Of a DNA stretch of 64,000 bases, positions 33,674-57,269 are shown piece after piece (positions within the stretch are counted from its first letter, which is position 1; every line of letters starts with the position of its first letter). The notes below the pieces were generated by a model. That model was not told where the DNA came from, made no database searches, and saw only the letters and a program-made list of their open reading frames with translations. The position numbers and the translations under genes were made by a program. This DNA comes from Armatimonadota bacterium (GTDB lineage Bacteria; Armatimonadota; SYMT01), in the NCBI GenBank assembly GCA_046292385.1, contig JBKBRF010000023.1, positions 32,001 through 96,000 on the forward strand, written 5' to 3'.

Positions 33674-34531
33674 CTACGCCGGCACGACCGGCGGCATCGG
33701 CTTGCGGCGCTTTTGCTGCCAGATCTCGATCACGTTGGCGATCGGTCCCACGGTGAAGAGCGCGTAGTACGGCGCATGGACGTTGCCGGAGAGCCGGAGC
33801 GCGCACTCCGCCGCCGCTACCAGGAACGCCACCAGCACCTGCCCGCTCTTGCTCTGTACCGTCGTCTTCGGATCGGTGATCATGAAGAAGATGAAGAGCT
33901 GGTACATCGGGCCGGTAATCGGCGCCACCGTCGTCGCGAACGCCTGGCCGGTGATCGCCGCCCGCAGCGCCGCGAAGAGCACGAAGGAGAGGGCGTAGGT
34001 CAGGCAGATGTGGAACCGCTTGAGGCGGTAGATGATGATCGAGCCGATGGCCCAGATCACCAGCATCGGCCAGTGGATGTTGCCCCACTCGCCGCTGAGC
34101 GTGTGGACCGCCCACGGCGCCACGATCAGCGTCATGGCGATGCCGAAGTTGGACGGGTTCCAGATGTGGCGGCCTTCCCACCGGATCACGTACTTCGACA
34201 TGATCGAGATCGCCGCGCAGAAGGCGTAGGGCCAGTAGACTCCCTCCGCGCGGAGCAGGATGCCGACGCTGATCCCGCTGATGTAGGCGCTGGCGAGGTG
34301 GGGCCACTTGCCGTAGTAGACCCGGCTGAAGATCAGCTCCGTCACGATCGAGGTGGCGATGGCGAGCAGAGTGCGGTCGAAGCTGACCAGCACGTTGAAC
34401 TGCCAGTTCGCCACCAGCAGGATCGCGGTGATGAAGATCGGCGCGATGTAGCGCTGGTCGAAGCCGCCCTTCCGCTTCTCGGGGATCGCCGTCGTCCCGG
34501 CGGGCGTCAGTGTGGTGGGCTCGGTGCTCAT
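33674..34531 (-). CDS. UnbU-like / RnfD-NqrB-like membrane protein
   Basis: SKYVIR...HIWNPSNFG and FFMITDPKT motifs, with many TM helices. Confidence 0.75.
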   Translation of the reverse strand: MSTEPTTLTPAGTTAIPEKRKGGFDQRYIAPIFITAILLVANWQFNVLVSFDRTLLAIATSIVTELIFSRVYYGKWPHLASAYISGISVGILLRAEGVYWPYAFCAAISIMSKYVIRWEGRHIWNPSNFGIAMTLIVAPWAVHTLSGEWGNIHWPMLVIWAIGSIIIYRLKRFHICLTYALSFVLFAALRAAITGQAFATTVAPITGPMYQLFIFFMITDPKTTVQSKSGQVLVAFLVAAAECALRLSGNVHAPYYALFTVGPIANVIEIWQQKRRKPMPPVVPA

Positions 34532-36303
34532 GCCGATTCCTTCACATGGTGCCGCTTCCCGATCTCGGGAGCTTCAAGCGTCTGCCGGGTGCCGGAGGGC
34601 CAGAGGATCTCGACCTTGTCGATCTTCTCCGCCTCGCCCAGGCCGAAGTGGAGCCGCCGGCTGTTCTGCGCGGCGAAGCCGCTGCCGCCGGAGACCTGCT
34701 GGAGCTGCACCTTGCCGTCCCAGTAGAGCTTCACCTGGGCGCCGATGGCGCTCCGGTTGCTCTTCGTTCCTTCCAGCTCCAGCTCCACCCACCGGTGCTT
34801 CGGCTCGGCGTCGTTCCGGTAGAAGAGCAGCGGGCCGCGCTGGTGCGCCACGGCGACGTCGAGCACGCCCCGGTTCTGGAAGTCGCCCATCACCACGGCG
34901 CGGCCGTCGAACGTCTCACTCACGCCGACCTGCGGCGCGATGTCGACGAAGCGCTTTCCGTCCTGGCTCAGCCAGACCTTCTTCGGCTGGTAGCCGGCGA
35001 GGGTGCGGTTGTTCAGGGCCGGCCAGTTCACGGCGTCGCTGATGATCGACCCGTGGGCGCCGGTGATTTGGGAGTAGTCGTGCCAGTAGCTGGAGCCGCG
35101 GTCGCCGGAGATGAAGCCGTTGGTGAGGAAGAGGTCGAGCCAGCCGTCGTTGTTCAGGTCGCCGAACTGCGCGCCGAACGCCCAGCCGCCCTCGGAGACG
35201 CCGAGCTCCGTCGCCCGCTCCTCGAAGCTCAAGGCGCCGCCGCCAGCGCCCTCGAGCGGCGACCAGAGGTTGTTGAGCTGCATCATCACGCCGCGCTCGC
35301 TGATGTTGGAGACGTAGGCGGCGAGCCGGCCGCTGTTGGTGATGTCGCCCAGGGAGACGTTCATGCCGCTGCGGGGATGGTCCGCGATGCCGACCGCCTT
35401 GCCGATCTCCCGGAACTTGCCGCCGTCGTTCGCGAAGTACTCCGCGTAGCCGTAGTCGTTGGCGATCACCAGGTCCGGGTAGCCGGTGCCGCGGAAGTCG
35501 CCGGCCATCGCCGCGAGCGCCCAGCGGTTGCTGTTGAGGCCGACCTTCGCGGTGACGTCTTCGAACTTGCCGCCGCCCGAGTTGCGGAGCAGGTACTTGC
35601 GGCCGCCGTTGGTGGCGTACTTGAAGCTGTCCGGCATGATCCGCGTGTCGCGCAGGCGGAAGAGGTCGACGTCCTCGCGGTAGTAGCCGCCGAGGAAGAG
35701 GTCGAGCCGGCCGTCACGGTCGTAGTCGAGCCAGACCGCGGAGTTGGCGTTCGCCCAGGCGGGAAAGCCCTGCACCTCCACGCGGGTCAGCTTCTTGCCG
35801 CCCTCGTTCCGGAACAGCTCCGGCCGGCCCCACTTGTAGAGGAACAGGTCCTCGAAGCCGTCGTTGTCGTAATCGCCCCAGACGGCGCCCATCGACACGC
35901 CGGTGCCGGGCTGGTTGACGTCCGCCACGCCCAGCTCGGCGGCGACGTCCTTGAACGTGCCGTCCTGCTGGTTGCGGTAGAGCCGGTTCTGGCTGCCCTC
36001 GGCGCTGTTGGTGACGTAGAGATCGTCCCAGCCGTCCCGGTCGAAGTCGACCACCGACGCCGCCGCCCCATACGAGGCGACGAGCGGCGAGATCTTCTCC
36101 AGCCGGGGGTCGAGCTGCGGCGCCTGGTGGGTGAAGTCGAGCCCCGCCTTGCGGGACGCCTCTTCCAGGCGGAAGCCGTACCGCTGGATCGCCAGCGAGG
36201 GATCTACCGCCGCGGTGGTCTTCATCTGCGACCAGACCACCGGCGCCGCGAGGACGCCCACGAAGACGATACTCAGCCCGATTCGCGCGACGCGATTCTC
36301 CAT
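34528..36303 (-). CDS. CRTAC1 family protein (FG-GAP/VCBS repeats + ASPIC/UnbV domain)
   Basis: Repeated D(F/Y)D.DG..DL motifs and C-terminal SNRSAIGA...GGSGF...LHFGLG...I.WPSG. Confidence 0.9.
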   Translation of the reverse strand: MENRVARIGLSIVFVGVLAAPVVWSQMKTTAAVDPSLAIQRYGFRLEEASRKAGLDFTHQAPQLDPRLEKISPLVASYGAAASVVDFDRDGWDDLYVTNSAEGSQNRLYRNQQDGTFKDVAAELGVADVNQPGTGVSMGAVWGDYDNDGFEDLFLYKWGRPELFRNEGGKKLTRVEVQGFPAWANANSAVWLDYDRDGRLDLFLGGYYREDVDLFRLRDTRIMPDSFKYATNGGRKYLLRNSGGGKFEDVTAKVGLNSNRWALAAMAGDFRGTGYPDLVIANDYGYAEYFANDGGKFREIGKAVGIADHPRSGMNVSLGDITNSGRLAAYVSNISERGVMMQLNNLWSPLEGAGGGALSFEERATELGVSEGGWAFGAQFGDLNNDGWLDLFLTNGFISGDRGSSYWHDYSQITGAHGSIISDAVNWPALNNRTLAGYQPKKVWLSQDGKRFVDIAPQVGVSETFDGRAVVMGDFQNRGVLDVAVAHQRGPLLFYRNDAEPKHRWVELELEGTKSNRSAIGAQVKLYWDGKVQLQQVSGGSGFAAQNSRRLHFGLGEAEKIDKVEILWPSGTRQTLEAPEIGKRHHVKESA

Positions 36304-36359: not shown

Positions 36360-37379
36360 TCACTTCAGGGTGATGCTGGCGGGGCGAATGTCTTTCGGGA
36401 TAAAGCGGCGGTCGATCAGCTCCGACATCGGCACCGGCCGCTCCAGGATACCCGCTCGCAGGCCCATCTCCTGGATGCGGTTCAGCTCCTCATCCGTGGG
36501 GGTGAGCATCCGGTAGCTCACGCGGTTGCGGGGCTGCGTCAGGACGTGGCGCACCACTTTCTCATCCTGACGGAAATACGGTGCGGCGAGCGCGGCGGCC
36601 TCCAGCCGGTGGGTTTCCGCCCATTCGCCGGACTCCGCGATGCCCCGTACCAGGTCGGCCACCACCTGGGGCTTTTCCTTGATCACCCGCTCGGTCACCA
36701 CCAGGCAGCAGGAGATGAAGCTGGGCCACACGTCCTTGATATGGTGGAGCACCCGCCCGGTACCGTCCAGCTCCGCCCGCGCTGCGTGCGGCTCGCCGAT
36801 GATGTAGGCGTCGATCGCCCGCACGGCGAGCGCGCCCGGCATGTCCGGCGGCGGCATCTCGATGAACTTCACGTCGTTGGGTGAGAGCCCCCGGTCTTCC
36901 ATCAGCTTGCGGATCACCAGGTACTGGTTGCTGTACTTGCTCGGGATGGCGACCGTCTTGCCGCGCAGTTCGCCCACGTCCTTCGCAGTCGAGTCGCTGC
37001 GGACCATGATCGTGGTGCCGTCGCGGTGGCCCAGGTAGGCGATCTTCACCGGGACGCCCTGCTCCCGCAGCTTCATGGCGAGCGGCACGATCATGAAGGA
37101 GGCGTCGAGGTGACCCGCCTTGATCGTCTCCACCACGGTGGGAAAGTCTGTAAAACGCTGCGACTCGAACCGAGTCGTCGTGCTGGTCTTCGACGCGAAG
37201 TCGGTGACCGGGCACGTCAGGTGTCACGTCACCGGCAGGAAGCCGACCTTCAGCGTCTCCTTCGCCACCACCTGCGGCTCCTTCGCCGCCAGCGCCTCCC
37301 ACGGCCGGAACCGGAGGACGCCGATGCCGGCGTAGACCGCCGCCACCGTGGCCCAGACTTTGATGCTCGATCGGGTCAT
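36360..37379 (-). CDS. NitT/TauT-type ABC substrate-binding protein, probable selenoprotein (in-frame TGA at codon 52)
   Basis: GGGAG RBS, ATG at 37379, N-terminal TM, LKVGFLPVT-TGA-HLTCPV continuing in frame into ORF 36360..37136. Read-through gives 339 aa. Confidence 0.8.
37179..37216 (-). promoter_or_regulatory. Candidate bacterial SECIS hairpin
   Basis: CGTGC-CC-GGTC-AC-CGAC-TTCGC-GTCG-AA-GACC-A-GCACG, beginning 8 nt after the TGA. Confidence 0.65.
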
Positions 37380-37426
37380 GCTTTACTCCCGGACAACAGT
37401 TCTCGGATCCTTCTCGCCGCCCGTCC

Positions 37427-37764
37427 CGTGTCGGCCAACGCACCGCAGCTTGCCCCTGGCTCACGTTTCTTGCCGATGTGCCGCGTCAGCACCGCGGCTC
37501 CGACCCCGCGCCCTTGTGCCAGGAAGCAGCCCTCCCGCGACGACGGTCCTCCGCGCCCTTTTCACACTCCGCTGCGCTCCGTTAGCAGGGCGCTGCGGGA
37601 GTGCATCCCATCAGGCTCTGCCCGCGCCAACAACCGGGGCTCCAATCAGAGGCTCGGTTCACGGGCTGCCTCCTGGCCCTTCGAGCGAACCCCCCTGCGC
37701 CCAGGGGGGTTCACAGGTGCCGTCCTCCGCCGCAGCCTGCGGCTGCACCTCCGGACGCCTCGGA
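37427..37764 (-). ncRNA. Structured element family, copy D
   Basis: Colinear with copy B (GCTAACGGAGCG.AGCGGAGTGTGAAA, GTCGCGGGAGGGCTG, CACAAGGGCGCGGGGTCGG). 15-bp helix 37518-37532/37663-37677. Confidence 0.75.
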
Positions 37765-37813
37765 AACATGGTGGTCACCGACTAGGAGACCCCTTTCGGG
37801 AATCGCAGGTACA

Positions 37814-38200
37814 CGCGCGATGGCTACCAGCGGAGCCCGTAGGTTCTGCCGTAGGCAGAGCCGGAGGGTTCCCCTTGTGACCACCCCTGGCGAGGGGTGG
37901 TTGCTTGAGCCGGGGGGAGCGGCCCGTGAATCGCCGCGATGGTGCAGTCGCCGTGACCGATCGCGGCCCACAGCGGGACGGGGAGCACGCCCGGACCAGC
38001 CCGTTAGCCCGAAGGGCGTGGGAGGGCTGAGGGAGGGCCACTCACGCGGGAGGGCCGCTCCCCCCGGTGGGGGCACGGGGTGGAACTGCGGTGAGATGTC
38101 TTGCCCGAAAAGTGGCGGAAGGCCTCCTGCTCGGGAGGCTGGGCCCACAGACGGGGAACGGTGCACGTGGGAGCTGTCACGATCGTAAGACACGGCAACC
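37814..38200 (+). ncRNA. Structured element family, copy E
   Basis: Perfect 16-bp helix 37910-37925/38052-38067, colinear with copy C, ending in CGTAAGACACGGCAACC. Confidence 0.75.
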
Positions 38201-38204
38201 CTCC

Positions 38205-38946
<742 letters not shown>

Positions 38947-38957
<11 letters not shown>

Positions 38958-39717
38958 AACCCCACCGCACCTCCGGGAGCAGCGTGAGCCGCGCGAGCAG
39001 CCAGTCGAGCCCCATTCCGATCACTCCGATCACCACCATGTGGCAGACGAGCCAGTCGGTCCGCAGCGCGTTCCGGTCGTCCCACACCGCAAAGCCGAGG
39101 CCGTTGATGCCCGCGATCATCTCGGCCGCCACCACCACCATCCAGGAGACGCCGGCCGCTACCCGCAGCGCGGTGATGAACTGGGGCATGATCGCCGGCA
39201 GCGAGACCTTCGTGATCAGCTCCAGGCCCTTGTAGCCGTAGTCGCGGGCCACCCGGAACTGGACGGCCGGGATGTTCGCGACAGCGGCGCTGATCGAGAG
39301 CACCAGCGTGAAGAAGGTCCCCATGAAGATCAGGAAGATGGCGGGCGCATCCCCGATCTTGAACCAGAGCACCGCGAAGGTGATCCAGGCGAGCGGCGAG
39401 AGATTGCGGAAGAAGTTGACCGCCGGCAGCAGGGCGAGGCGCGCCAGCCGGGAGTGCCCCATCCAGAGCCCCACCGGCACGCTGAGCGCCACCGCCACGC
39501 CGAAGCCGATCGCCACGCGCCAGAGGGACGCGGCCACGTCGGTCAGCATCCGGCCGCTCCGCACCTCGTGCGCGAAGCCTTCCAGCACCGCCTGCGGGGG
39601 CGGGAACGCCGACTTCGGATAGATCCCGAGCGCGGAGACGACGCTCCATGCCACCAGCAGCACGGCAAAGACCCCGAGCGGCAGCAGCAGCGTTTGGGCG
39701 GATGCGCGTTCCTTCAA
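38947..39717 (-). CDS. NitT/TauT-type ABC transporter permease
   Basis: FPPP, SPLAW and VVAAEM..GLG motifs. TTG start with GGAG RBS. Confidence 0.9.
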
Positions 39718-39907
39718 GACTACGGCTCCGGTCGCGGGGGGAAAGCGGGCGGCGCGACGACTTCGACATACGTTGTTACGGGCCCCAACCGGGGCGGTCC
39801 TCCACCGGCGGCGGTCCCTTAACCGTTTCTAATGCCCGCCCTCCCCACGAAAAAAGTTCCTCCGCGCAGCGTCACGCCGCAACCGGGCCGCGCGTACCGG
39901 CTCTGAA

Positions 39908-57090: not shown

Positions 57091-57142
57091 CGCCCGCGAG
57101 TAAACTCGGGGCTACTGAGAGCGAAGCCCGCCTGCGCGGGCT
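57091..57142 (+). repeat. REP-like bipartite palindrome
   Basis: ...GGCTACTGAGAGCGAAGCCCGCCTGCGCGGGCT. Confidence 0.8.
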
Positions 57143-57269
57143 GTCGAACCCGGTACTCGGAGCGCCTCGCCCGTTCCCATCAGGTTCCCTTCGCGTCTTT
57201 CGCCATCTTCGCGCCTTCGCGTTCGTTCGGAGCTACCCCCCGGCGAGGCTTCGCCCGTATACTGCTGTG

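What the first reader, a model, noticed from the sequence alone, without database searches (positions are those of the whole stretch)
37179..37379. Hidden selenoprotein: ABC substrate-binding protein with UxxxC motif and SECIS-like hairpin
Seen: ATG 37379 with RBS encodes a membrane anchor and LKVGFLPVT, then TGA (37226-37224), then HLTCPVTDF... in the same frame as the 258-aa ORF. A three-segment stem-loop (CGTGC/GCACG, GGTC/GACC, CGAC/GTCG, loop TTCGC) starts 8 nt downstream. The protein also has a CC pair (FISCCLVV). Established: bacterial Sec insertion uses UGA plus an adjacent 3' hairpin bound by SelB, usually at positions where homologs have Cys. Sec-containing ABC binding proteins have been reported but are rare. 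Inference: the protein has U-H-L-T-C, a possible metal- or redox-active ligand site, and standard callers would truncate it or call it a pseudogene.
Basis: partly seen in the sequence, partly recalled or inferred. Interest (0 to 1): 0.8.

Follow-up and report, generated by a model that had tools for sequence, protein, structure and literature searches.

The report
Selenocysteine codon in transporter binding protein
An apparent stop codon inside the gene for a transporter's binding protein is almost certainly read as the rare amino acid selenocysteine, which points to a widespread selenium-containing protein family that gene finders routinely cut short.

Summary
The minus-strand gene 37379..36360 has one in-frame TGA (37226-37224). 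Read through, it gives a 339-aa NitT/TauT-type (Pfam NMT1_2) ABC substrate-binding protein next to its permease and ATPase. The TGA aligns with an invariant Cys of the motif LPVT-C-HLTCPVT in 24 of 24 aligned homologues. The genome has selA, selB, a Sec-containing selD and tRNA-Sec. In a 401-genome sample of the phylum, 9 of 60 orthologues carry TGA at this codon. A codon-degenerate scan of species genomes hit its 120-locus limit, with titles naming Planctomycetota, Acidobacteriota, Armatimonadota and Myxococcota. Two downstream hairpins are kept in 32 Sec forms: 93.6% of cells paired, six pairs with compensatory changes. They are degraded in 31 Cys forms (MFE -27 versus -13 kcal/mol). Independent metagenome contigs keep the TGA. 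So this is a genuine selenoprotein, not a pseudogene or a sequencing error. The next hairpin (37176-37162, loop GUU) probably binds SelB. I did not find the family in a 2026 selenoprotein catalogue or as an NCBIfam model. The closest known proteins are SaoX and SaoB. The ligand is unknown; I infer a thiophilic metal or metalloid.

The parts
36360..37379 (-). Gene for a 339-aa selenoprotein substrate-binding protein (NitT/TauT type, NMT1_2). Start ATG 37379, Sec-UGA at codon 52, stop TGA 36362-36360.
   Evidence: Pfam NMT1_2 scores 104.8 bits against a cut-off of 24.7. Full-length homologues of 336-381 aa cover 88-100% of it. The closest solved structure is 3un6: profile E 1.4e-38, Foldseek TMq 0.71.
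37311..37373 (-). N-terminal hydrophobic helix (residues 3-23), a probable signal anchor.
   Evidence: Sequence. Helix 3-23 in the AF2 model. The topology is inferred.
37224..37226 (-). In-frame TGA = selenocysteine codon 52 (U-H-L-T-C).
   Evidence: It aligns with an invariant Cys. The same codon is TGA in 9 of 40 orthologue loci examined and in 120 loci of the genome scan. It is kept in independent contigs.
37212..37214 (-). Cys56 codon (TGC), the partner of Sec52 in U-x3-C. It also forms part of stem 1.
   Evidence: Invariant in 100 of 100 rows.
37179..37216 (-). A probable spacer module of the SECIS.
   Evidence: In 32 Sec forms, 13 pairs, 5 of them with compensatory changes. Cys forms keep on average 7.2 of the 11 inner pairs, against 10.1 in Sec forms.
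37162..37176 (-). Hairpin 2: GACUCG-GUU-CGAGUC. The probable SelB-binding loop.
   Evidence: All 6 pairs form in 32 of 32 Sec forms; Cys forms average 3.55 of 6. selD of the same genome has a GUG triloop on an 8-bp stem, 33 nt after its UGA.
36705..36710 (-). Cys224-Cys225 (FISCC). C224 is invariant.
   Evidence: It aligns with the CC of 3un6.
38205..38957 (-). ABC transporter ATP-binding subunit.
   Evidence: Pfam ABC_tran E 6.3e-29. The best NCBIfam match is SaoA at 193.6 bits, under its cut-off of 360. Synteny.
38947..39717 (-). ABC transporter permease.
   Evidence: Pfam BPD_transp_1 E 1.3e-17. Synteny.
34528..36303 (-). FG-GAP / ASPIC-UnbV repeat protein directly downstream, a frequent neighbour.
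   Evidence: A strong match (53-62% identity, E 4e-179 or lower) lies within 7 kb of the binding-protein gene in 8 of 18 loci.
33674..34531 (-). RnfD/NQR2-like membrane protein, a frequent neighbour.
   Evidence: Pfam NQR2_RnfD_RnfE E 1.3e-9. Found in 6 of 18 loci.

Best explanation
The gene encodes a membrane-anchored periplasmic substrate-binding protein of a NitT/TauT-type ABC importer, and UGA-52 is decoded as selenocysteine. Decoding works as in other bacteria: SelB carrying Sec-tRNA(Sec) is recruited by an mRNA structure just 3' of the UGA. Here that structure has two parts. A 38-nt three-stem hairpin (37216-37179) holds the canonical distance but has a variable loop without G. A short invariant hairpin with a GUU triloop (37176-37162) follows it. 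I infer that this second hairpin binds SelB and that the first folds away the intervening 38 nt, so the effective spacing falls from 53 to about 15 nt. In the protein, Sec52 sits in the loop after the first beta-strand, at the mouth of the binding cleft. With the invariant His53, Cys56, His118 and Cys224 it most likely forms a thiophilic ligand site for a soft metal, a metalloid or an organometallic or chalcogen-bearing substrate, which is then handed to the permease. Shown here: the Sec/Cys pair, the decoding machinery, the conserved and covarying RNA structure, and the transporter context. Inferred: which hairpin binds SelB, the spacer role of hairpin 1, and the ligand.
For: 1. Sec/Cys pair. 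The read-through protein aligns end to end with 24 of 24 chosen homologues (of 118 non-self hits listed), all with Cys at column 52 inside an invariant LPVT-C-HLTCPVTD.

2. Machinery in the same genome. selB 367.5 bits (cut-off 242), selA 577.9 bits (cut-off 268), selD 362.3 bits with its own in-frame TGA, and tRNA-Sec 66.6 bits (cut-off 47) with anticodon TCA.

3. Recurrence. In 401 genomes of the phylum, 60 have an orthologue at E <= 1e-60, and 9 of these carry one TGA. All 9 TGAs fall on this codon. The 31 Cys-form loci I examined (of 51) have TGC or TGT there. These fall into three subfamilies of 27, 65 and 28 loci.

4. RNA structure. On 32 distinct Sec forms, 93.6% of 608 cells are paired, against 22-38% when partners are slid. 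Six pairs show compensatory change, and 0 of 500 shuffles reach the covariation score. In 31 Cys forms the same pairs are degraded, and the MFE of 63 nt is -13.0 versus -27.0 kcal/mol. Synonymous sites are fixed in 9 of 9 Sec forms (ACG TGC CCG) but are 71%, 65% and 48% in Cys forms.

5. Not a sequencing error. A 626-nt contig from another study is identical across the site. A 208-nt contig with 15 differences, all upstream at 37266-37350, keeps the TGA and hairpin 1.

6. Trait linkage. selA was found in 8 of the 9 Sec-form genomes. The ninth, 92% complete, has selB over its cut-off.

7. Transporter context. The permease and ATPase lie upstream in the window. Both lie beside the gene in 12 of 18 loci, and the ATPase alone at a contig end in one more.

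8. Metal hint. The closest structure, 3un6, has a title that ends 'with Zin' (cut off) and has His where Sec52 lies. One Sec-form locus has a P-type heavy-metal ATPase directly upstream. The ATPase's best NCBIfam match is SaoA.
Against: No selenium incorporation has been measured. Neither hairpin alone meets the published bacterial SECIS model (passages of PMC13188914): hairpin 1 has no G in the first two loop positions, and hairpin 2 lies 53 nt from the UGA where the model allows 16-37. The window's hairpin alone is not better than shuffles (z = -1.59). The covarying structure was derived from the same sequences on which it was counted, and these sequences are related. The AF2 model is weak exactly at residues 52-55 (pLDDT < 50), so clustering of Sec52, Cys56 and Cys224 is not shown. 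The ligand evidence is thin. The heavy-metal ATPase is a neighbour in only 1 of the 4 loci I annotated. The zinc in 3un6 may be a crystallisation artefact. The commonest neighbours (FG-GAP/ASPIC, RnfD-like) say nothing about metals. selA and tRNA-Sec were not found in one Sec-form genome. An 826-nt gap separates the gene from the ATPase gene here, so co-transcription is not certain.
Confidence: 0.9

Rival explanations
1. The gene is a pseudogene: a TGC-to-TGA nonsense mutation has inactivated an ordinary Cys-containing binding protein.
For: TGA differs from TGC by one base. Gene callers split or truncate the gene: the database holds 286-aa and 258-aa products of this window. An unusual 826-nt gap lies upstream.
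Against: The same TGA occurs at the same codon in 9 orthologues from three families of the phylum and in 120 or more species genomes. The downstream frame stays open and about 70% identical to homologues. A Sec-form-specific RNA structure is kept by compensatory changes.
Confidence: 0.02
2. The TGA is a sequencing or assembly error.
For: Most records in this family that carry the TGA are metagenome assemblies (record titles), and one base decides the reading.
Against: Contigs from other studies carry it: X2 record 12, with 0 differences over 626 nt, and X6 record 24, a diverged variant. No alternative letter is reported at 37224-37226 in four runs. The TGA also recurs in many independent assemblies.
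Confidence: 0.01
3. The UGA is read through, but not as Sec: by near-cognate Trp or Cys insertion, or by Cys-tRNA(Sec) when selenium is scarce. The hairpins would then only slow termination.
For: No chemical evidence for selenium exists. The element does not fit the canonical SECIS model. 35 of 51 Cys-form orthologues sit in genomes that also have selA, so Cys works at this site.
Against: All 9 TGA-form genomes have at least one Sec-machinery marker. The gene's own stop is also TGA, so UGA is not generally reassigned. Hairpin 2 resembles the selD SECIS of the same genome, a G-U-N triloop on a perfect stem.
Confidence: 0.05
4. There are two separate products: a 51-aa membrane peptide, and a shorter binding protein started internally (for example at GTG 37136).
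For: This is how ORF finders read it.
Against: An internal start would remove the signal anchor, the first beta-strand and the invariant motif that all homologues keep. Homologues are single proteins of 336-381 aa.
Confidence: 0.02

Closest known systems
SaoX, the CD2365-family extra substrate-binding lipoprotein of the SAO system (Haft & Gwadz, bioRxiv 10.1101/2022.07.06.499078; sections 6 and 17 and search passages read)
   Same: An SsuA/NMT1-like ABC binding protein with conserved Cys residues, including a CC pair, placed by its authors in the binding cleft and thought to bind a metal. It is occasionally a selenoprotein. The window protein matches the SaoX model weakly (67.4 bits, residues 81-277), and its ATPase matches SaoA best.
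   Different: The score is far below the SaoX cut-off of 300. The Sec of SaoX is at 191-192 (TU) in mid-protein and was seen in one species. Here Sec is at residue 52, N-terminal to the region that aligns with the SaoX model, and is found in at least 120 species. The window protein has a signal anchor rather than a lipoprotein signal (inferred). No SAO nine-gene locus is seen next to it. The hosts appear to be soil, freshwater and marine bacteria (record titles and run labels), not the anaerobic fermenters that carry SAO.
SaoB, the substrate-binding selenoprotein of the SAO ABC transporter (same paper)
   Same: An ABC substrate-binding protein with Sec in the predicted binding pocket. It is truncated by gene callers at the UGA.
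   Different: A different binding-protein family: there was no NCBIfam SaoB match at E <= 0.01. Its motif is CU, against U-x3-C here.
PDB 3un6, ligand-binding component of an ABC import system from Staphylococcus aureus
   Same: The closest solved relative: profile E 1.4e-38 over residues 27-313 and Foldseek E 1.1e-22, TMq 0.71. It shares GH..G, EP and the CC at the FISC position.
   Different: It has His, not Cys or Sec, at position 52, and Leu at position 56. It is not a selenoprotein. Its function is not known to me (recalled).
SsuA, TauA, NrtA and CmpA (sulfonate, taurine, nitrate and bicarbonate binding proteins)
   Same: The same fold and Pfam clan. All rank among the top 50 Foldseek matches; SsuA and TauA rank 2-10.
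   Different: The window protein scores 131 bits on TIGR01728 (SsuA_fam), below the cut-off of 163.5. These proteins lack the C/U-H-L-T-C-P motif: the NrtC-type domain in the alignment has T-D-S there.
Canonical bacterial SECIS (consensus model as given in PMC13188914, Fig. 2 legend)
   Same: It lies in the coding region directly 3' of the UGA. Hairpin 2 has a 3-nt loop beginning G-U on a 6-bp stem. Subfamily B of this protein family fits the model fully, with loop AGUUG 21 nt after the UGA.
   Different: In the window's subfamily the G-U loop lies 53 nt from the UGA, outside 16-37 nt, behind an extra conserved 38-nt hairpin whose own loop has no leading G.

Membership tests
Bacterial selenoprotein gene (UGA decoded by SelB and a SECIS) | The in-frame UGA aligns with Cys in homologues (a Sec/Cys pair). 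| tested here: met
   24 of 24 aligned homologues have Cys. 31 of 31 Cys-form loci have TGC or TGT at the codon.
Bacterial selenoprotein gene (UGA decoded by SelB and a SECIS) | The UGA is conserved at the same codon in other species, with similarity continuing past it. | tested here: met
   9 of 60 orthologues in the phylum sample. Homologues cover 88-100% of the protein.
Bacterial selenoprotein gene (UGA decoded by SelB and a SECIS) | selA, selB, selD and tRNA-Sec are present in the genome. | tested here: met
   all four score over their curated cut-offs. ARAGORN finds tRNA-SeC with anticodon tca.
Bacterial selenoprotein gene (UGA decoded by SelB and a SECIS) | A conserved stem-loop lies just downstream of the UGA and is specific to the UGA forms. 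| tested here: met
   93.6% of cells paired, 6 compensatory pairs, MFE -27.0 versus -13.0 kcal/mol in Cys forms.
Bacterial selenoprotein gene (UGA decoded by SelB and a SECIS) | Fit to the consensus bSECIS model: a 3-9 nt loop with G in its first two positions, 16-37 nt from the UGA. | tested here: not met
   Checked by hand against the criteria quoted. Hairpin 1 has loop UUCGC at 24 nt, with no leading G. Hairpin 2 has loop GUU but at 53 nt. bSECISearch itself was not run.
Bacterial selenoprotein gene (UGA decoded by SelB and a SECIS) | Selenium is present in the protein. | not testable with these tools
   This needs 75Se labelling or mass spectrometry.
NitT/TauT-family ABC substrate-binding protein (Pfam NMT1_2) | The family profile is matched over its curated cut-off. 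| tested here: met
   PF13379 scores 104.8 bits against 24.7, over residues 40-265.
NitT/TauT-family ABC substrate-binding protein (Pfam NMT1_2) | It is encoded with an ABC permease and an ATPase. | tested here: met
   Window. Both partners lie beside the gene in 12 of 18 loci, and the ATPase alone at a contig end in one more. 5 loci showed no partner within about 7 kb.
SsuA subfamily (TIGR01728) | The score reaches the curated cut-off. | tested here: not met
   131 bits against 163.5.
SaoX (NF040735) | The score reaches the equivalog cut-off. | tested here: not met
   67.4 bits against 300.
SaoX (NF040735) | It lies in the nine-gene SAO locus (SaoL, C, T, D, E, P, A, B). | tested here: not met
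   The neighbours are a permease, an ATPase, an FG-GAP/ASPIC protein and an RnfD-like protein. The only Sao model among the neighbours' matches is SaoA, under its cut-off. The rest of the genome was not searched for Sao families.
SaoB (NF040727, number as in the table of PMC13188914) | The family profile is matched. | tested here: not met
   It is not among the 8 NCBIfam families matched at E <= 0.01.

The most novel reading that the evidence does not exclude
This would be a large, so far uncatalogued selenoprotein family: ABC-importer binding proteins of soil and aquatic Planctomycetota, Acidobacteriota, Armatimonadota and others. Selenocysteine would itself be the ligand-contacting residue for a soft metal, a metalloid or a selenium or sulfur species. 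In two of its three subfamilies, decoding would use a non-canonical, distal SECIS: a small G-U-loop hairpin 50-70 nt from the UGA, brought close by an intervening folded spacer. Model-based selenoprotein finders would not see such an element.
Probability: 0.4. Interest if true: 0.8.

Novelty: new variant of a known kind. Interest (0 to 1): 0.72.

Why it matters
Selenocysteine in transporter binding proteins was first described in 2022, in the SAO system of anaerobes. This family would extend it to a different binding-protein lineage that is common in soil, freshwater and marine bacteria, judging by record titles and run labels.

Annotation would gain directly. The gene is being truncated or split: this window's product is stored as 286-aa and 258-aa fragments.

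It also gives a natural test bed for how far a SECIS can sit from its UGA. Three subfamilies solve the same decoding problem with three different RNA layouts.

A Sec residue at the mouth of a binding cleft suggests an unusual substrate: a soft metal, an organometal or a chalcogen. A 2026 review states that no specific high-affinity selenium uptake system is known in prokaryotes (PMC13188914, passage), so the substrate is worth finding.

Cultured carriers of the related subfamily B exist (record titles: Engelhardtia mirabilis Pla133, Rohdeia mirabilis Pla163, Paraliomyxa miuraensis SMH-27-4), so experiments are possible.

Tried and rejected
- The single-sequence fold of the hairpin region is not better than shuffles (z = -1.59), so I did not use it as evidence.
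- Rfam found nothing in 37000-38400 at E <= 1. Across the whole window it found only a borderline CRISPR repeat match elsewhere. So no known riboswitch or RNA explains the 826-nt gap upstream of the gene.
- The ORFs in that gap (165 aa at 37711-38208 minus strand, and several on the plus strand) have no Pfam or NCBIfam match. The six-frame translation looks non-coding.
- ORF 38954-39769 has no Pfam match. The permease is the overlapping frame 38947-39717.
- The AF2 model (mean pLDDT 71.4) is below 50 at residues 52-55, and no coordinates are returned. I could not measure whether Sec52, Cys56 and Cys224 touch, and I did not use it for the site.
- SaoX, SaoB and SsuA membership was tested and rejected on score.
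- I considered alternative genetic codes (TGA = Trp or Gly) and rejected them: the gene ends in TGA and homologues have Cys.
- Literature. Haft & Tolstoy 2025 (mSystems, PMC12013261) is not held. Two searches failed on term format.
- Table S9 of PMC4807772 lists planctomycete selenoprotein candidates, including ASPIC/FG-GAP proteins, but no binding protein of this type.
- Earlier notes of this scan: none near this place and none by sequence.
- The neighbourhood scan of the 120 short loci was limited by flank length: subfamily B showed no neighbour within reach.
- Run X1 may be the source sample, so I did not count it as independent.
- I did not run complex prediction, the search of protein representatives or the protein-atlas search.
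Full report
**The observation**

On the minus strand, an ATG at 37379 follows a GGGAG box. The frame runs to a TGA at 37226-37224 and then continues, in the same frame, into the 258-aa ORF that ends at 36360. Read with TGA as U, the product is 339 residues long. It has a hydrophobic N-terminus, then LKVGFLPVT-U-HLTCPVTDF, and later FISCCLVV. The gene's real stop is also TGA.

Its stems are CGUGC/GCACG, GGUC/GACC and CGAC/GUCG, its loop is UUCGC, and it spans 37216-37179. On this sequence alone the fold is not better than chance: z = -1.59, and 16 of 200 shuffles fold as well.

**What the protein is**

Pfam places it in NMT1_2, at 104.8 bits against a cut-off of 24.7. NCBIfam gives only sub-threshold matches: SsuA_fam at 131 bits against 163.5, and SaoX at 67.4 against 300.

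The closest solved structure is 3un6, a Staphylococcus aureus ABC ligand-binding component. The profile E-value is 1.4e-38. Foldseek gives E 1.1e-22 and TMq 0.71 on an AF2 model of mean pLDDT 71.4. SsuA, TauA, CmpC/NrtC domains and NrtA follow.

The gene lies downstream of a permease (39717..38947, BPD_transp_1) and an ATPase (38957..38205, ABC_tran). It lies upstream of an FG-GAP/ASPIC-UnbV protein and an RnfD-like membrane protein. The permease and ATPase both lie beside the orthologue in 12 of 18 loci fetched with about 7 kb on each side, and the ATPase alone lies at a contig end in one more. A strongly matching FG-GAP/ASPIC gene is present in 8 of these loci and the RnfD-like gene in 6. 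Five loci showed no partner within reach.

**Is the TGA a selenocysteine codon?**

Six lines of evidence agree.

First, a protein search returned full-length homologues of 336-381 aa at 68-74% identity, covering 88-100% of the read-through protein. The window's own product is stored only as 286-aa and 258-aa fragments. I aligned 24 of these homologues, and all 24 have Cys at column 52 within an invariant LPVT-C-HLTCPVTD.

Second, the genome holds selB, selA, selD (itself with an in-frame TGA) and tRNA-Sec, all above their curated cut-offs. ARAGORN calls tRNA-SeC with anticodon tca.

Third, the TGA recurs.
- Among 401 genomes sampled from the window's phylum, 60 have an orthologue at E <= 1e-60, and 9 of these contain one TGA.
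- I examined 40 loci at the codon: all 9 TGA forms and 31 of the 51 others. Every TGA sits on this codon, and every other locus has TGC or TGT there.
This pattern is blind to synonymous choices.
- The record titles name Planctomycetota (including three cultured strains of other subfamilies or types), Acidobacteriota, Armatimonadota, Myxococcota and a few others.

Fourth, the TGA is not a sequencing error. A 626-nt contig from a different study is identical across the site. A 208-nt contig from a third study differs at 15 positions, all upstream at 37266-37350, yet keeps the TGA and the hairpin.

Fifth, the TGA form is tied to the selenocysteine trait. selA was found in 8 of the 9 TGA-form genomes, in 35 of the 51 Cys-form genomes, and in 218 of the 401 overall. 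The ninth TGA-form genome, 92% complete, has selB above its cut-off but no tRNA-Sec above the gathering score. These genomes are related to one another, so I read this as consistency and not as a statistical test.

Sixth, a tree of 100 rows (69 Sec, 31 Cys) needs at least 9 Sec/Cys changes, 4 of them forced by well-supported branches. It contains near-identical sister pairs of opposite state. The 100 rows came from 160 translated loci. I dropped 41 that ran off a locus end, 17 outside 270-330 aa, and 2 duplicates. Sampling is uneven: Sec forms come from all species genomes and Cys forms only from one phylum. So I infer no direction of change.

**The RNA element**

In the window's subfamily (A: 27 of the 120 loci, plus those from the phylum sample, 32 distinct sequences) two hairpins follow the UGA.

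Counted on alignment A2, 93.6% of 608 cells pair, against 22-38% when the 3' partners are slid by 1-3 columns. Six of 19 pairs show changes on both sides, for example GGUC/GACC to GGUG/CACC, GGUU/AACC or CGUC/GACG, and CGUGC/GCACG to CUUGC/GCAAG. None of 500 shuffles reaches the covariation score. I drew the structure from these same sequences, which inflates such counts.

An independent control is therefore the Cys-form orthologues.
- They keep 7.2 of the 11 inner pairs of hairpin 1, against 10.1 in Sec forms.
- They keep 3.55 of the 6 pairs of hairpin 2, against 6.0 in Sec forms, where all 32 of 32 are perfect.
- They fold at -13.0 +/- 3.9 kcal/mol, against -27.0 +/- 2.2.

Synonymous third positions are fixed in 9 of 9 Sec forms (ACG, TGC, CCG). 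The commonest letter at those positions reaches only 71%, 65% and 48% in Cys forms.

**Which hairpin binds SelB?**

The published consensus is quoted in the Fig. 2 legend of PMC13188914. It asks for a 3-9 nt loop with G in its first two positions, 16-37 nt from the UGA.

Hairpin 1 has the right distance (24 nt), but its loop, UUCGC, has no leading G and varies between species.

Hairpin 2 (37176-37162) has an invariant GUU triloop on a 6-bp stem, but it sits 53 nt from the UGA.

The selD gene of the same genome has, 33 nt after its UGA, a GUG triloop on an 8-bp stem. That is the same kind of loop as hairpin 2. Subfamily B (65 loci) has a single canonical hairpin, GGUCACC-AGUUG-GGUGACC, 21 nt after the UGA, with compensatory GGUGACC/GGUCACC variants. 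Subfamily C (28 loci) has a small GAACC-CGUGA-GGUUC hairpin about 70 nt away.

I therefore infer that hairpin 2 is the SelB-binding part. Hairpin 1 would be a folded spacer that takes 38 nt out of the path, leaving about 15. This is inference, and a reporter assay would settle it.

**What Sec does in the protein**

Across 100 rows spanning the three subfamilies, the invariant residues outside the ascertained motif include H118-R119-D120-G121, E196-P197, W218, S223-C224, W253, R258 and R286. The only invariant Cys and His residues are C/U52, H53, C56, H118 and C224.

In the AF2 model, Sec52 lies in the loop between strand 41-47 and helix 57-65. That stretch is modelled poorly (pLDDT < 50).

In 3un6 the aligned residue is His, and the FISC position carries CC. 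The entry's title, cut in the output, ends 'with Zin'.

One Sec-form locus has a P-type heavy-metal ATPase (E1-E2 plus HMA) directly upstream on the same strand. Another has a CNNM/CorC gene divergently placed. A third has an Asn-synthase-like, radical-SAM and FAD-halogenase-like insert.

Taken together with the SAO precedent, I commit to a thiophilic ligand site for a soft metal, a metalloid or an organometallic or chalcogen substrate. I give that detail roughly even odds.

The alternative is a redox-active or covalently acting selenylsulfide pair (U-x3-C). The PBP-fold desulfinase DszB, whose entry title names a C27S mutant, appears among the structural neighbours at ranks 39-41.

**Comparison with what is known**

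Haft & Gwadz wrote that they knew of no earlier ABC binding protein with selenocysteine (bioRxiv 10.1101/2022.07.06.499078; I read sections 6 and 17 and search passages). They described SaoB, with a CU motif, and SaoX, which is SsuA-like, with Sec at 191-192 in one species.

A 2026 review tabulates prokaryotic selenoprotein families (PMC13188914; passages only). Among binding proteins it lists only SaoX, SaoB and a BtuF form. My term searches of it found nothing for NMT1, THI5, SsuA, PF13379, PF09084, PF12974, TIGR01728, COG0715, sulfonate, taurine, bicarbonate, periplasmic or UxxxC.

NCBIfam release 20 has no model that the protein reaches.

I could not read Haft & Tolstoy 2025, the supplementary family list of BSepDB, or the supplements of the other catalogues. 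The statement 'not catalogued' rests on those searches only.

Two earlier notes of this scan, on other genomes, reached the same reading for what appears to be the same kind of protein. They are unchecked AI notes and not independent evidence.

**Verdict**

The feature is a real selenocysteine codon in an ABC binding protein. The family is widespread and apparently unlisted. Its insertion element in this subfamily departs from the consensus model.

Noticed in passing
window 37500-37602: A dispersed repeat of about 105 nt sits in the 826-nt gap between the ATPase gene and the binding-protein gene. 40 copies at 81-95% identity were scored in the window's genome, out of 186 candidates. Depth over it in metagenome contigs is up to about 90 times that of the flanks, with contig breaks at 37499/37500 and about 37600. 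It shows no fold signal (z = 0.39). In a same-family genome the ATPase and binding-protein matches lie only about 60 nt apart (L074).
   Followed up: partly
window 57120-57143: A single borderline Rfam match to CRISPR-DR28 (35.4 bits, gathering score 35). I did not check whether an array is present.
   Followed up: no
G000:C11:87438-90122 (loci L009, L010, L012): selA, selD and tRNA-Sec are clustered. selD is itself a selenoprotein (...KCGG-U-ASK...) with a canonical SECIS: a GUG triloop on an 8-bp stem, 33 nt after the UGA.
   Followed up: partly
L078-L197 (genome-contig loci): The motif LPVT-U-HLTCPVT heads three sequence subfamilies with different downstream RNA layouts. A has two hairpins. 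B has one canonical hairpin at +17 to +35. C has a small CGUGA-loop hairpin at about +66 to +80, with possible long-range pairing CCUCACG...CGUGAGG.
   Followed up: partly
L054 (Sec) and L055 (Cys): These are sister orthologues on very short branches (0.04 and 0.03, support 99) with opposite states. In the Cys form both stem 1 and hairpin 2 are already disrupted, which suggests quick decay, or quick build-up, of the element.
   Followed up: partly
L060 3009-6980 and L061 (same layout by tblastn): In two Sec-form loci, about 4 kb lies between the ATPase and the binding-protein gene. In L060 (the only one of the two scanned against Pfam) it encodes an asparagine-synthase-like protein, a radical-SAM protein and an FAD/halogenase-like protein. 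A TPR-FG-GAP-ASPIC protein and a methyltransferase follow. The cluster looks biosynthetic. Its link to the transporter is unknown.
   Followed up: no
L063 4670-6922: A P-type heavy-metal ATPase (E1-E2_ATPase, HMA) ends about 80 nt before the start of a Sec-form binding-protein gene that has no ABC partner within 7 kb. DUF6174 lies downstream on the other strand.
   Followed up: no
PMC4807772, Table S9: ASPIC/UnbV FG-GAP proteins are the same kind as the window's downstream neighbour at 34528-36303. Four of them were listed in 2016 as selenoprotein candidates in two planctomycetes, with TGA aligned to Gly. The window's copy has no in-frame stop.
   Followed up: no
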